Below are positions 56,343-58,531 of a stretch of DNA of 64,000 bases, piece by piece. Both the position numbers and the translations under genes were made by a program. Source of the DNA: Mariniblastus sp. (GTDB taxonomy: Bacteria > Planctomycetota > Planctomycetia > Pirellulales > Pirellulaceae). Numbering within the stretch: the stretch's first letter is position 1; each line of letters starts with the position of its first letter. Where the stretch lies: assembly GCA_031400405.1 (NCBI GenBank), contig JANNPW010000050.1:20646-84645 (forward strand), written 5' to 3'. The notes under the pieces are model-generated. The model saw nothing but the letters and a program-made list of their open reading frames with translations. It had not been told where the DNA came from and searched no databases.

Positions 56343-56452
56343 GTGGGATAGGCTTCCAGCCCTTTGCTGGTGGGATAGGCTTCCAGCCCTTTGCTGGTGG
56401 GATAGGCTTCCAGCCTGTCATTTTATCAAGTCAGGCTGGAAGCCTAACCCAC
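56343..56452. repeat. REP-like palindrome with two tandem 27-bp partial copies
   Basis: gtgggataggcttccagccctttgctg x2 (56343-56369, 56370-56396), then 21-bp arm gtgggataggcttccagcctg (56397-56417) pairing with caggctggaagcctaacccac (56432-56452, one mismatch). Confidence 0.85.
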
Positions 56453-56454
56453 AT

Positions 56455-57702
56455 TCAATACAACATAAACTCTCGAAACTCGCCCCGCATGCAATGGTTG
56501 GACGCCATGGACGAAGAATACGCACCAGCATTAAGCAGGCACAGCACGTCATCTTCGGCCAGCGCTGGCAACTCGAGGTCACGGTACCAAATATCCAAGG
56601 CCTCGTTGATATGGCCGGCAATGGTGTAGCGTTGCGTTGGGCCGCTGCGGCGAACTGCGGGAACAGGTTGAAACGGCAAGCCATAAACAACCGGTTCGCA
56701 AGCGATATTGAATCCACCGTTGACGCCGACAAAAACTTTGTCTCGTTTGCGTTCTACCGATCCAACGGTCAATAGGAGAATTCCGGCATCTTTGGCGATG
56801 TAGTCCCCCGGTTCAACTTCCACCGTCAAGTTGGGTCGGTCGAAAAAATGGGACCGGACAATTTCTCCCCACTGATTCAAATCCAGCGGTTGATCGGATT
56901 CCAAATGCGGCACGCCAAGGCCTCCGCCGATATTGACATTGCGCAAACCAGGAACTTGATCCAGAAACCAGCGGCATTCCCCGAGCACCTTGCTCCAAGT
57001 TTCCAATTGGGGCGTCAAATATCCGCAGCCCGTATGAAAATGGATCGTCTCCACAATCAACCCCAACCGGTCGGCTAAAGCCAGGGCCTCATGAAACTGT
57101 TCTCGATAGACTCCAAACTTGGTCGTGTCCTGTCCGGCGTACTGTAGTTTTTCATTGTGGGCCCGACTGATTCCGCAAGCGGGATTGATGCGAATTCCAA
57201 TGCGGGAACCAGGCCGGCGTTTTCCCCATTCGCCGATCGCATGTTGTGAATCGAAGTTGACCCGCAAATTGTCGATACGACTCAAGCGGTCAAAATCCTG
57301 CCGTGACAAACTGGTATTGGTAAAGGTAATCTCTTCGGGGGCAAAACCACAACTGAGCGCGTGTTCAACTTCGTTCGGAGAACAGGCATCGATTCCGGTC
57401 AGCCCGGTTTGTTTCAAGAAACTCAATAACGGAGCAAACCGGTTGGCTTTCATCGCATAATTAATGCGCGATCGCCCCTGAAAACCAGACTGGTCCAAAG
57501 CCGCCTGCAATCGTTGAATATTCTGTAAGACCCGCGCGGGACTGTAGAAAAACGACGGCGTGCCAAATTGCCGAGCGAGACCGTTAACGTCTCGCCCGGC
57601 AAATTTTAAGTTCGCTCCATTCCAGTCCAAATCAGGCCGCGACCACCAATCGACTGTCGAACGTGCTTCGCGAGCCAAATCCAGGATCGCTGGGGAGTTC
57701 AT
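56455..57702 (-). CDS. Group IV PLP-dependent decarboxylase-family protein (LysA/ODC fold), divergent active site
   Basis: FGTPSFFY, YAMKAN (PLP Lys), DACSPNE, GIRINP, TKFG, HFHTG, NIGGG, EPGDY, AGHINEALD, NAGAYSSSM; start MNSPA overlaps the SET stop (ATGA), so ORF-track 57960 is too long. Confidence 0.88.
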   Translation of the reverse strand: MNSPAILDLAREARSTVDWWSRPDLDWNGANLKFAGRDVNGLARQFGTPSFFYSPARVLQNIQRLQAALDQSGFQGRSRINYAMKANRFAPLLSFLKQTGLTGIDACSPNEVEHALSCGFAPEEITFTNTSLSRQDFDRLSRIDNLRVNFDSQHAIGEWGKRRPGSRIGIRINPACGISRAHNEKLQYAGQDTTKFGVYREQFHEALALADRLGLIVETIHFHTGCGYLTPQLETWSKVLGECRWFLDQVPGLRNVNIGGGLGVPHLESDQPLDLNQWGEIVRSHFFDRPNLTVEVEPGDYIAKDAGILLLTVGSVERKRDKVFVGVNGGFNIACEPVVYGLPFQPVPAVRRSGPTQRYTIAGHINEALDIWYRDLELPALAEDDVLCLLNAGAYSSSMASNHCMRGEFREFMLY

Positions 57703-58175
57703 GCGACAACTCGGCGAAGCTGACAAAACTGCTGGTAGGCAGGATCGGCTACCGCCGGCTCCTCTGCTTTCCCGGTAATCCAGCCTCGACATTGGATTGA
57801 ACCGCATTGACACGGAAACTGTTTGTACAACACGTCTTCCGTTTGCGCGTAGTCCATCAACAGATGCTCGTTGGGACGAATCGGACGGATCGCGTAAACC
57901 AACATGTTTTGCATGTCGAGGTGCACGTTGGGATCGCAGGAATGCAGGAAATAGCCACAAAAGTTCAAATCAACCAGATGCACACTTGGCTCGATCTGAA
58001 GGCTATGTTGTGTCATTTCAGTGACAATTTCGCCAGCGAGTGCTGCGACAATGTCGCCCGGTTCGAAGGACCGGTAGGTAATCACGCCCAGACCCGAAGA
58101 ATGGTCGCGTTTGACAACTTTGAAATCGTAATGTGAGGGATAAAGAGGGTTGTGTCCGTAACACTCTGGATACAT
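57699..58175 (-). CDS. Stand-alone SET-domain protein with post-SET motif
   Basis: SGLGVITYRSF (GxG motif I), FLHSCDPN (NHSCxPN variant), EHLLMDY, post-SET CQCGSIQCRG; AGGAGA RBS upstream. Confidence 0.88.
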   Translation of the reverse strand: MYPECYGHNPLYPSHYDFKVVKRDHSSGLGVITYRSFEPGDIVAALAGEIVTEMTQHSLQIEPSVHLVDLNFCGYFLHSCDPNVHLDMQNMLVYAIRPIRPNEHLLMDYAQTEDVLYKQFPCQCGSIQCRGWITGKAEEPAVADPAYQQFCQLRRVVA

Positions 58176-58531
58176 CTCGGGGAGCTCTCCTATTGGAATT
58201 TAAACCCGTAACAACGACGCCGATTGTTGATTGGGCGAACTGGCAACACTGCCACGTCTAAAAACCTCATCAACGCTCAAACATCGCCAAACAAACAACG
58301 AAACAGTCGGCTGGTCTCCTCTAACCAACCCAATACTCACAAACGGTACCGTGACTGTTAAGCCATCTTTCCGGGCGATCCTGTGGAGTTTCGATCCCTT
58401 CTTTCCGGTCATTAACTTGGAAAATTTCCGCTAGGAACGATATCAAGCTTTCGGATGAAAGAAAAGAGCGAATTTGCCCAAATCGCCAAAATTTTGGAAA
58501 TCGGTTTTTCGTGCATTCCAATAACCCGCAG

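What the first reader, a model, noticed from the sequence alone, without database searches (positions are those of the whole stretch)
56455..58175. Translationally coupled SET methyltransferase + atypical LysA-fold PLP enzyme: candidate new methyl-amino-acid / methyl-polyamine pathway
Seen: the SET stop (TGA 57701-57699) and the PLP-enzyme start (ATG 57702-57700) overlap as ATGA. The pair is bounded by a 356-bp intergenic leader upstream and a REP-like hairpin downstream, so it looks like a self-contained two-gene unit, and both proteins deviate at catalytic motifs. Established: SET domains are SAM-dependent lysine N-methyltransferases usually discussed as protein/histone modifiers; group IV enzymes decarboxylate DAP, Orn, Lys, Arg or carboxy-polyamines. 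SET domains have been proposed to N-methylate polyamines in diatom fusion proteins. Inference: this SET may methylate a small molecule (Lys/Orn/DAP or its amine) in a pathway with the PLP enzyme, giving an N-methylated diamine, osmolyte or lipid head group, rather than serving ordinary lysine synthesis.
Basis: partly seen in the sequence, partly recalled or inferred. Interest (0 to 1): 0.85.

Follow-up and report, generated by a model that had tools for sequence, protein, structure and literature searches.

The report
BurB/BurI-type DMSP synthesis gene pair
The two overlapping genes are most likely a methionine S-methyltransferase and an S-methylmethionine decarboxylase, the first two steps towards the sulfur compound DMSP; the chemistry is known from Burkholderia, but this stand-alone pair turns out to be widespread in sediment bacteria where the reviews I found do not report it.

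Summary
A 158-aa SET gene (57699-58175, minus strand) and a 415-aa LysA-fold PLP gene (56455-57702, minus strand) overlap in ATGA. Both deviate from their families' canonical motifs.

The SET protein's closest solved relative by far is BurB (9L4T/9L4V; 40% identity; profile E 3.6e-47, against about 1e-11 for histone methyltransferases). BurB is the SET-domain enzyme that S-methylates methionine to S-methylmethionine (SMM). The PLP protein is 50% identical over its full length to the BurI-position gene of an Eleftheria terrae bur-like cluster. It shares all the unusual motifs with that gene: EPGD, E for Arg, NEA for CES, SNHC. BurI is the SMM decarboxylase.

The pair is conserved in 72 of 73 informative species loci, spanning Planctomycetota, Desulfobulbaceae and Gammaproteobacteria. 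It is often 4-nt overlapped and carries no third conserved gene. One related locus adds BurD/BurE homologues and SAM-cycle genes. In-frame SET-decarboxylase fusions also exist.

Most likely function: Met to SMM to DMSP-amine, then probably DMSP by unlinked enzymes.

It is a new member of a known kind. The interest lies in its distribution: reviews of 2022 and 2026 call BurB Burkholderia-restricted.

The parts
57699..58175 (-). BurB-type SET-domain methyltransferase gene (158 aa), predicted methionine S-methyltransferase (Met + SAM to S-methylmethionine).
   Evidence: Pfam SET. AF2 model has pLDDT 79.6. Best PDB fold matches are BurB 9L4V/9L4T, TM 0.77, 40% identity; the next are histone KMTs at about 20% identity. 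Profile against PDB: BurB E 3.6e-47, MLL1 8.9e-12. 47% identical to the burB-position gene of the Eleftheria bur-like cluster. Motifs shared with BurB: H57-S-L-Q60-I, L77-H78-S-C80, M107-D-Y109, C122xC124x4C129.
56455..57702 (-). BurI/SMMDC-type fold-III PLP decarboxylase gene (415 aa), predicted S-methylmethionine decarboxylase (SMM to DMSP-amine + CO2).
   Evidence: Pfam PF02784 + PF00278. NCBIfam lysA scores 208.6 bits, below the 297.9 cut-off. LysA fold in the AF2 model, pLDDT 85. 50% identity over 396 aa (E 5e-128) to the burI-position 'diaminopimelate decarboxylase' of the Eleftheria terrae bur-like cluster. EPGD300, E336-P, G-x-I-N366-E-A-L-D and S-N-H403-C404 are invariant in the family and shared with that BurI.
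57699..57702 (-). ATGA stop/start overlap (translational coupling).
   Evidence: Read directly. The same NTGA overlap is seen in about 34 of 72 species loci, and most others have gaps of 10 nt or less.
58176..58531 (-). 356-bp upstream intergenic leader; no recognised regulatory element.
   Evidence: ORF coordinates. No Rfam hit at E<=1. No sigma-70-like site and no sigma-54-like site.
56397..56452 (.). Strong hairpin directly after the decarboxylase stop: 21-nt arms, 14-nt loop. Likely terminator or REP-like element between convergent genes.
   Evidence: arms 95% complementary. (-55.4 kcal/mol, z -4.7). (raised depth and alternative flanks in a DNA run).
56343..56423 (.). Three tandem copies of a 27-nt unit; the third forms the left arm of the hairpin.
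   Evidence: four copies of the 19-nt core, all in this intergenic region, none expected by chance.

Best explanation
The pair is a BurB/BurI-type module of the 'methylation pathway' to dimethylsulfoniopropionate (DMSP).

Step 1: the SET protein uses SAM to methylate the sulfur of free L-methionine, giving the sulfonium amino acid S-methylmethionine (SMM).

Step 2: the translationally coupled LysA-fold PLP enzyme removes the alpha-carboxyl of SMM, giving DMSP-amine (3-dimethylsulfoniopropylamine). In this enzyme the two arginines that hold the distal carboxylate of diaminopimelate in LysA are replaced by Asp and Glu, which suits a cationic side chain.

Steps 3 and 4: transamination or oxidation to DMSP-aldehyde, then oxidation to DMSP. 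These are not encoded next to the pair and would be carried out by unlinked or housekeeping enzymes.

Basis of each part:
- Shown here by homology, synteny and fusions: family membership of both proteins and their tight, conserved coupling.
- Taken from the literature on BurB/BurI: the reactions themselves.
- Inferred: that this clade keeps the same substrates, and that DMSP is the end product in this organism.
For: SET protein:
- BurB is by far the closest solved structure, at 40-47% identity.
- It keeps H57, H78 and Y109, which correspond to BurB H72, H93 and Y124 (PMC12542666). It also keeps the family-specific Leu in place of the canonical Asn of NHSC.

PLP enzyme:
- It is 50% identical over its full length to the ninth gene (burI position) of a syntenic burA-J cluster in Eleftheria terrae, with identical signature motifs.
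- BurB makes SMM in vitro. A burI knockout accumulates SMM and is rescued by DMSP (PMC7496086).
- BurI and SMMDC are DAP-decarboxylase-like (PMC11464771).

Coupling and context:
- The pair is conserved in 72 of 73 informative species loci from three or more phyla, with no other conserved neighbour.
- The SET and decarboxylase trees are broadly congruent.
- Related locus L093 has decarboxylase-SET-aminotransferase-aldehyde dehydrogenase (53% and 54% identical to the BurD and BurE counterparts). The cluster sits next to MetK, SAH hydrolase, adenosine kinase and a homocysteine-biosynthesis gene.
- In-frame SET-decarboxylase fusions exist (P0367, P0407). One fusion joins an ODC-type decarboxylase to a BurB-like SET (P0377).
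- burD and burE knockouts still make product in B. thailandensis, so housekeeping enzymes can supply the last steps (PMC7496086).
Against: - No biochemical data exist for this clade.
- Identity to characterised BurB is only 40%. BurB contacts methionine through main-chain atoms, so substrate specificity cannot be read from side chains (PMC12542666).
- Three BurB SAM-contact residues (R42, R133, H138) are S27, K118 and Q123 here.
- B. thailandensis BurI itself was not compared. Its orthologue was assigned by synteny in Eleftheria.
- No BurD/BurE-like gene lies in the 64-kb window or near the pair in the 80 loci.
- The runs that hold this genome are freshwater sediment metagenomes, where a role for DMSP as a marine osmolyte is not obvious.
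- One Pirellula genome has the SET gene without the decarboxylase next to it.
Confidence: 0.8

Rival explanations
1. Same first two reactions, but the pathway stops at, or branches from, DMSP-amine. The dicationic sulfonium amine, or an N-acyl derivative of it, would be the functional product (a polyamine-like or compatible solute), not DMSP.
For: - Only two genes are conserved, and no BurD/BurE-like gene is nearby.
- In Pseudohongiellaceae a GNAT acetyltransferase (8 loci) or a GGACT-family gene (7 loci) follows the decarboxylase directly.
- In one Desulfobulbaceae clade the pair lies 1.2 kb from an agmatinase-NspC-CANSDH-SpeA polyamine cluster.
- Carriers include freshwater organisms.
Against: - Housekeeping enzymes complete the pathway in B. 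thailandensis burD/burE knockouts (PMC7496086).
- L093 shows the family linked to BurD/BurE homologues.
- The lineage-specific neighbours are on other strands or limited to single clades.
Confidence: 0.25
2. The clade has drifted to a related but different substrate pair: another thioether, selenoether or cationic amino acid that is methylated and then decarboxylated.
For: - The window clade is a separate sister group to BurB/BurI proper, at 40-50% identity.
- Specificity determinants of BurB are not known.
Against: - All residues invariant across both clades are shared.
- The decarboxylase signature motifs are identical to those of the BurI orthologue.
- The linkage to methionine/SAM-cycle genes in L093 is in the sister clade, not in the window clade.
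Confidence: 0.08
3. One reading: the SET protein N-methylates Lys, Orn, DAP or their diamines, and the PLP enzyme decarboxylates a basic amino acid. The product would be an N-methylated diamine, osmolyte or lipid head group.
For: - The distal pocket of the PLP enzyme is acidic.
- A SET enzyme, Rubisco LSMT, can methylate free lysine (cited in PMC8085414).
- Polyamine genes lie nearby in one clade.
Against: - The SET protein is far closer to the S-methyltransferase BurB than to any lysine methyltransferase.
- The canonical NHSC Asn is lost, as in BurB.
- The PLP enzyme is a BurI orthologue.
- A sister-clade cluster is embedded in Met/SAM metabolism together with BurD/BurE homologues.
Confidence: 0.05
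4. Two unrelated functions that merely share an operon: an ordinary lysA paralogue for lysine synthesis and a protein-lysine methyltransferase.
For: Public annotation names them 'diaminopimelate decarboxylase' and 'SET domain-containing protein-lysine N-methyltransferase'.
Against: - lysA model score is below the cut-off.
- Both DAP-carboxylate arginines and the CES motif are replaced.
- Coupling is conserved across phyla, and gene fusions exist.
Confidence: 0.02

Closest known systems
BurB (Burkholderia thailandensis; PDB 9L4T, 9L4V), SET-domain L-methionine S-methyltransferase of the malleicyprol (bur) cluster
   Same: - Small single-domain SET protein with a post-SET Cys cluster.
- 40% identity to the crystallised protein and 47% to the Eleftheria orthologue.
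- Shared H-[ST]-L-Q-I, L-H-S-C and M-D-Y motifs.
- Genomic linkage to a BurI-type decarboxylase.
   Different: - 158 aa against 172 aa.
- Forms a separate sister clade.
- Not part of an NRPS/PKS cluster.
- Sits immediately upstream of the decarboxylase and overlaps it, whereas in bur clusters burB and burI are about 18 kb apart.
- SAM-contact residues R42, R133 and H138 are not conserved.
BurI (B. thailandensis) and SMMDC (Streptomyces mobaraensis), PLP-dependent S-methylmethionine decarboxylases
   Same: - LysA-like fold-III enzyme.
- 50% identity to the burI-position gene of the Eleftheria bur-like cluster.
- Identical EPGD, E-P, G-x-I-N-E-A-L-D and S-N-H-C motifs.
   Different: - Stand-alone two-gene operon.
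- The comparison was made with a syntenic orthologue, not with the characterised proteins themselves.
- No solved structure exists for this family.
LysA, meso-diaminopimelate decarboxylase (e.g. E. coli 1KNW/1KO0)
   Same: Same fold, TM about 0.8 and 24-27% identity. The PLP Lys, His, GGG loop, Glu and Tyr are conserved.
   Different: R271 to D300, R307 to E336, C342 to N366, S344 to A368. Below the TIGR01048 cut-off.
MmtN / plant MMT plus Spartina SDC (ODC-type): the other known enzymes for Met to SMM to DMSP-amine
   Same: Same two reactions are proposed. SDC is also a fold-III decarboxylase (PMC11464771). A natural fusion of an ODC-type decarboxylase to a BurB-like SET (P0377) bridges the two solutions.
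   Different: BurB has no detectable sequence similarity to MmtN by BLASTP (PMC12542666). Spartina SDC is ODC-like, not LysA-like.
Histone/protein lysine SET methyltransferases (MLL1, ASH1L, NSD, vSET)
   Same: SET fold, GxG, HSC-x-PN, D-Y and post-SET motifs.
   Different: About 20% identity and profile E-values more than 35 orders of magnitude weaker than for BurB. Leu replaces the conserved Asn of NHSC.

Membership tests
BurB-type SET-domain methionine S-methyltransferase | SET fold with a post-SET Cys cluster, in a small single-domain protein | tested here: met
   Pfam SET. AF2 model with Foldseek. C80, C122, C124 and C129 are invariant.
BurB-type SET-domain methionine S-methyltransferase | Sequence relationship to BurB clearly above that to lysine methyltransferases | tested here: met
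   Profile against PDB: BurB E 3.6e-47, best histone KMT 8.9e-12. 47% identity to Eleftheria BurB. Sister clade in the NJ tree.
BurB-type SET-domain methionine S-methyltransferase | Residues named for SAM binding and the active centre in the BurB structures (R42, A44, H72, H93, Y124, R133, H138) | tested here: inconclusive
   H72, H93 and Y124 correspond to H57, H78 and Y109, which are invariant. R42, R133 and H138 correspond to S27, K118 and Q123, which are variable. Methionine contacts are main-chain only (PMC12542666).
BurB-type SET-domain methionine S-methyltransferase | Catalyses Met + SAM to SMM + SAH and is inactive on lysine | not testable with these tools
   Needs an enzyme assay.
BurI/SMMDC-type S-methylmethionine decarboxylase | Fold-III PLP decarboxylase with an intact cofactor site | tested here: met
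   K85, H223, G259-261, E297 and Y395 are conserved. LysA fold.
BurI/SMMDC-type S-methylmethionine decarboxylase | Orthology to the decarboxylase of a bur cluster | tested here: met
   50% identity over 396 aa to the ninth gene of the Eleftheria burA-J-like cluster, with the same signature motifs. B. thailandensis BurI itself could not be fetched.
BurI/SMMDC-type S-methylmethionine decarboxylase | Decarboxylates SMM to DMSP-amine | not testable with these tools
   Needs an enzyme assay.
Complete bacterial DMSP methylation pathway (BurB, BurI, BurD, BurE) | Linked DMSP-amine aminotransferase and DMSP-aldehyde dehydrogenase | tested here: not met
   There is no BurD/BurE-like ORF in the 64-kb window, and only stray hits in 3 of 80 loci. 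Both are present in sister-clade locus L093. The rest of the genome could not be searched.
LysA (meso-diaminopimelate decarboxylase) | Reaches the curated family score (TIGR01048) | tested here: not met
   208.6 bits against a cut-off of 297.9.
LysA (meso-diaminopimelate decarboxylase) | Two arginines that bind the distal carboxylate, and the C-E-S motif | tested here: not met
   The positions of E. coli R271, R307, C342 and S344 (alignment) hold D300, E336, N366 and A368, all invariant in the family. The roles of these LysA residues are from my own knowledge of LysA structures.
Protein-lysine SET methyltransferases | Canonical N-H-S-C cofactor motif and a protein substrate | tested here: not met
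   Leu77 replaces the Asn in all 35 aligned family members. The substrate is not testable here.

The most novel reading that the evidence does not exclude
This stand-alone BurB/BurI clade is a widespread and so far uncounted route to sulfonium compounds in sediments, including strictly anaerobic sulfate reducers (Desulfobulbaceae) and freshwater Planctomycetes.

Two versions are open:
- It makes DMSP. Gene-based surveys that rely on dsyB and mmtN would then miss an important group of producers.
- It ends at DMSP-amine or an N-acylated derivative, a sulfonium analogue of a diamine whose biological role as an end product is, as far as I know, undescribed.
Probability: 0.3. Interest if true: 0.75.

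Novelty: new member of a known kind. Interest (0 to 1): 0.5.

Why it matters

Reviews state that BurB is known only from Burkholderia and is therefore a minor contributor (PMC9135737, 2022; PMC13360808, 2026). Here a sister clade of burB, tightly coupled to a burI-type decarboxylase, was found in 209 species-representative genomes, all of the window's sister clade. The 80 that were examined come from these groups:
- Pirellulaceae
- Desulfobulbaceae
- Pseudohongiellaceae
- OM182
- Halothiobacillaceae and other Gammaproteobacteria

Current pipelines annotate the two genes as 'protein-lysine N-methyltransferase' and 'diaminopimelate decarboxylase'. If these enzymes are active, three things follow:
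- The list of potential DMSP producers in anoxic and freshwater sediments grows.
- Marker-gene surveys need a new marker.
- A large set of database annotations is wrong.

Several cultured carriers make this directly testable.

Tried and rejected
- Riboswitch or other RNA element in the 356-bp leader. Rfam at E<=1 gave only microRNA-family noise on the downstream hairpin.
- Sigma-54 promoter, prompted by NtrC-type activators near the pair in 14 loci and convergent in the window. There is no match in the leader, and matches across the window are at chance level.
- Sigma-70-like promoter or intrinsic terminator. Nothing above the shuffle background.
- A third conserved gene. Clustering all ORFs of the 80 loci found none beyond the pair.
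- My early ideas, set aside once BurB appeared as the structural neighbour:
  - N-trimethyl-lysine or trimethyl-diamine products.
  - Methylation of 2-aminoethylphosphonate, prompted by the Pirellula context.
  - SAM-derived aminocarboxypropyl transfer followed by decarboxylation, as an alternative spermidine route (prompted).
- Fetching B. thailandensis or B. ubonensis BurI through burB. The gene lies beyond the 10-kb flank. This was solved through an Eleftheria plasmid record.
- A canonical lysA in the window. None was found. The rest of the genome could not be searched.
- A solved BurI/SMMDC structure. None is in the PDB.
- Literature search for BurB homologues outside Burkholderia. Nothing was found in the held library.
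Full report
**1. Observation**

The region holds two co-directional minus-strand genes. The SET gene is 57699-58175 (158 aa). The fold-III PLP decarboxylase-like gene is 56455-57702 (415 aa). Its ATG (57702-57700) overlaps the TGA of the SET gene (57701-57699) as ATGA.

Pfam finds SET in the first protein and Orn_Arg_deC_N plus Orn_DAP_Arg_deC in the second.

Upstream lies a 356-bp intergenic stretch (58176-58531). It has no Rfam hit and no sigma-70-like or sigma-54-like site.

Three nucleotides after the stop there is a hairpin with 21-nt arms and a 14-nt loop. Its left arm is the last of three 27-nt tandem units. The hairpin folds at -55.4 kcal/mol, z -4.7.

Within the window the repeat occurs only here. 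In a DNA run that holds this genome, the hairpin region has five-fold higher word depth, and contigs with other flanks map to it. 'REP-like' is therefore plausible but not proven.

The gene downstream is convergent: an NtrC-type sigma-54 activator. The genes upstream are a 394-aa protein without a Pfam match and a sodium:dicarboxylate symporter.

**2. Motif deviations are real and are family traits**

Aligned to E. coli LysA (1KNW), the PLP enzyme keeps the cofactor residues: K85 (K54), H223 (H191), G259-261, E297, Y340 and Y395. Four other positions differ:
- D300 in place of R271
- E336 in place of R307
- N366 in place of C342
- A368 in place of S344

From my own knowledge of LysA structures, the two arginines hold the distal carboxylate of diaminopimelate. 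All four replacements are invariant in 25 diverse homologues. The NCBIfam lysA model scores 208.6 bits against a cut-off of 297.9.

The SET protein has the GxG, HSCxPN, MDY and post-SET CxCx4C motifs. However, Leu77 stands where SET enzymes have the Asn of NHSC.

**3. The pair is conserved**

Both proteins have hundreds of close relatives at 55-65% identity, across Pirellulaceae, Gammaproteobacteria and Desulfobulbaceae.

A scan of one genome per species found 209 species with a relative of the SET protein. Eighty loci were kept. The best match (99%) is a Mariniblastus sp. MAG, which identifies the source of the window.

In 72 of the 80 loci the decarboxylase gene follows directly. In seven others the contig ends right after the SET gene. 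Only one locus, from a Pirellula sp., has the SET gene without the decarboxylase. About 34 loci show the same 4-nt NTGA overlap, and most of the rest have gaps of at most 10 nt.

Clustering all ORFs of the 80 loci showed no third gene conserved across lineages.

**4. What it is**

*SET protein.* An AlphaFold model (pLDDT 79.6) matches BurB best (9L4V BurB-SMM-SAM, 9L4T BurB-Met): TM 0.77 and 40% identity. Histone methyltransferases follow at about 20% identity. A profile of the family hits BurB at E 3.6e-47 and the best histone enzyme at 8.9e-12.

BurB is the SET-domain enzyme of the Burkholderia thailandensis bur cluster. It methylates the sulfur of L-methionine to give S-methylmethionine. 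Its knockout abolishes the product, and the purified enzyme makes SMM (PMC7496086). It is inactive on MTHB and MMPA (PMC12542666). BurB also has Leu-His in place of Asn-His. Its H72, H93 and Y124 correspond to the invariant H57, H78 and Y109 here.

*PLP enzyme.* In the same cluster BurI is the decarboxylase. A burI knockout accumulates SMM and is rescued by DMSP (PMC7496086). BurI and the Streptomyces SMMDC are diaminopimelate-decarboxylase-like (PMC11464771).

I could not reach burI from burB in Burkholderia loci because of the 10-kb flank limit. An Eleftheria terrae plasmid record carries a complete syntenic cluster: PKS, SET, TauD, aminotransferase, aldehyde dehydrogenase, megasynthase, NAD(P)-binding protein, FkbH, 'diaminopimelate decarboxylase', AMP-binding protein.

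The ninth gene of that cluster is 50% identical to the window's PLP enzyme over 396 residues (E 5e-128). It has the same EPGD, E-P..Y, G-N-I-N-E-A-L-D and S-N-H-C motifs. The Eleftheria SET protein is 47% identical to the window's.

**5. Independent support**

- Locus L093, from an unnamed MAG of the sister clade, reads: adenosine kinase, SAH hydrolase, SAM synthetase, decarboxylase, SET, class-III aminotransferase (53% to the BurD counterpart), aldehyde dehydrogenase (54% to the BurE counterpart), homocysteine-biosynthesis protein. That is the full four-enzyme methylation pathway, embedded in methionine/SAM metabolism and without any NRPS/PKS.
- Loci L091 (Azospirillaceae) and L092 carry the bare pair.
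- A search of 1.8 billion representative proteins found 105 representatives at E<=1e-30. They include in-frame SET-decarboxylase fusions (P0367, P0407, P0368). They also include a fusion of a canonical ODC-type decarboxylase to a C-terminal BurB-like SET (P0377). The plant SMM decarboxylase of Spartina is also ODC-type (PMC11464771).
- Neighbour-joining trees of the SET and decarboxylase proteins are broadly congruent. They place the window's clade as sister to BurB/BurI proper.

**6. Mechanism proposed**

Met + SAM gives SMM (SET protein). SMM gives DMSP-amine + CO2 (PLP enzyme). The acidic D300, E336 and E367 would receive the dimethylsulfonium group where LysA receives a carboxylate.

Loss of the Cys of the CES motif is shared with the BurI orthologue, so it is compatible with activity. 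Which residue donates the proton is unknown. The invariant H403-C404 is a candidate, but that is my inference only.

The steps to DMSP are not encoded nearby. In B. thailandensis the burD and burE knockouts still make product, so housekeeping enzymes can substitute (PMC7496086).

Whether DMSP or DMSP-amine is the end product in this organism is open. Three observations bear on that:
- The sequencing runs that hold the window are freshwater sediment metagenomes.
- Some lineages place a GNAT or a GGACT-family gene right behind the decarboxylase.
- One Desulfobulbaceae clade has the spermidine genes next door.

A sediment metatranscriptome contains a 324-nt contig identical to part of the decarboxylase gene. 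That is weak evidence of expression.

**7. Comparison and novelty**

The enzymes are members of the BurB and BurI families, so the chemistry is known.

What is not in the literature I could search is the distribution. [quoted passage not shown] Further searches found nothing on homologues elsewhere. Subscription journals are not covered, so prior reports cannot be excluded.

Public annotation calls these genes a protein-lysine methyltransferase and a diaminopimelate decarboxylase, and NCBIfam has no specific model for them.

**8. Verdict**

The best explanation is a BurB/BurI-type Met to SMM to DMSP-amine module (confidence 0.8), and the end product is probably DMSP. It is a new member of a known kind.

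Interest is moderate (0.5). It rests on the unrecognised breadth of the family in sediment bacteria, including anaerobes and cultured strains that can be tested.

Noticed in passing
L093:270-10887 (GCA_964412665.1, CAYPPR010000036.1): Cluster reading PfkB adenosine kinase, SAH hydrolase, SAM synthetase, BurI-like, BurB-like, BurD-like, BurE-like, HcyBio, NIL-ferredoxin. It is a complete DMSP methylation pathway with SAM-recycling genes and no NRPS/PKS.
   Followed up: partly
Proteins P0367, P0407, P0368, P0377 (50% representative library): P0367 is an in-frame fusion of a BurB-like SET to a BurI-like decarboxylase (sequence read); P0407 and P0368 show the same domain order by Pfam only, and P0368 is truncated. 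P0377 joins a canonical ODC-type decarboxylase (EPGRY, GQTCDSND) to a C-terminal BurB-like SET, so a different decarboxylase has been recruited for the same partner. Source organisms are unknown.
   Followed up: partly
L011:9983-10477 and downstream (Pirellula sp. CoA8_C32); same in L005-L007: This is the only informative locus without the decarboxylase. The BurB-like SET gene (65% identical) lies 290 bp upstream of a 2-aminoethylphosphonate-type cluster: PEP mutase/nucleotidyltransferase, phosphonopyruvate decarboxylase-like TPP enzyme and an aminotransferase. Whether the two are functionally linked is unknown.
   Followed up: no
L001:6382-6822 (-) and L002:1-405 (Halothiobacillaceae MAG): A second, ordinary SET-domain gene (146 aa) lies divergently about 1.2 kb upstream of the BurB-like gene. 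It falls as an outgroup in the SET tree.
   Followed up: partly
L040:12851-18127, L041:7631-13039 (Desulfobulbaceae-type loci): An agmatinase, NspC-like, carboxynorspermidine dehydrogenase-like and SpeA spermidine cluster lies convergent about 1.2 kb downstream of the pair in 9-10 related loci.
   Followed up: partly
L067:11750-12244, L073:11724-12122 and related Pseudohongiellaceae loci: A GNAT acetyltransferase (8 loci) or a GGACT/AIG2-like gene (7 loci) directly follows the decarboxylase. Either could modify the amine product.
   Followed up: no
window:56343-56452: The hairpin and 27-nt repeat unit has about five-fold higher depth than its flanks in a DNA run, and contigs with other flanking sequence map to it. 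The element is probably dispersed in the genome or community. The related MAG L008 has two copies of the motif at the same site.
   Followed up: partly
window:56300-58600: The runs that hold this sequence are labelled freshwater sediment or sediment metagenomes, although the MAG is named Mariniblastus. One sediment metatranscriptome has a 324-nt contig on 56689-57001.
   Followed up: partly
Proteins P0361-P0363: Proteins of about 1400-1480 aa carry 5-8 tandem SET-like repeats and top the profile search by summed score. In P0361, the only one read, the motifs (HSCxPN, TTEW) differ from BurB. Origin and function are unknown.
   Followed up: no
L089:8001-8525 (Pseudomonas; P0322, 102 member sequences): BurB-like SET genes (about 56% identical to BurB) are common in Pseudomonas and Pandoraea. 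In the one Pseudomonas locus inspected there is no adjacent decarboxylase, so the enzyme there possibly makes SMM only.
   Followed up: no
Proteins P0146 and P0156: The decarboxylase labelled Sulfurimonas sp. is nearly identical to that of a Desulfoprunum sp. MAG. This looks like mis-binning rather than a Campylobacterota carrier.
   Followed up: no
window:45797-50455: A typical planctomycete gene pair, PSCyt1/PSCyt2/PSD1 (1035 aa) plus DUF1501 (492 aa), fits the taxonomic assignment.
   Followed up: no
window:54935-56341 and 14 of 80 loci: NtrC-type sigma-54 activator genes lie within a few kb of the pair in several lineages. No sigma-54 promoter was found in the window's leader, so this is probably coincidence.
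   Followed up: partly
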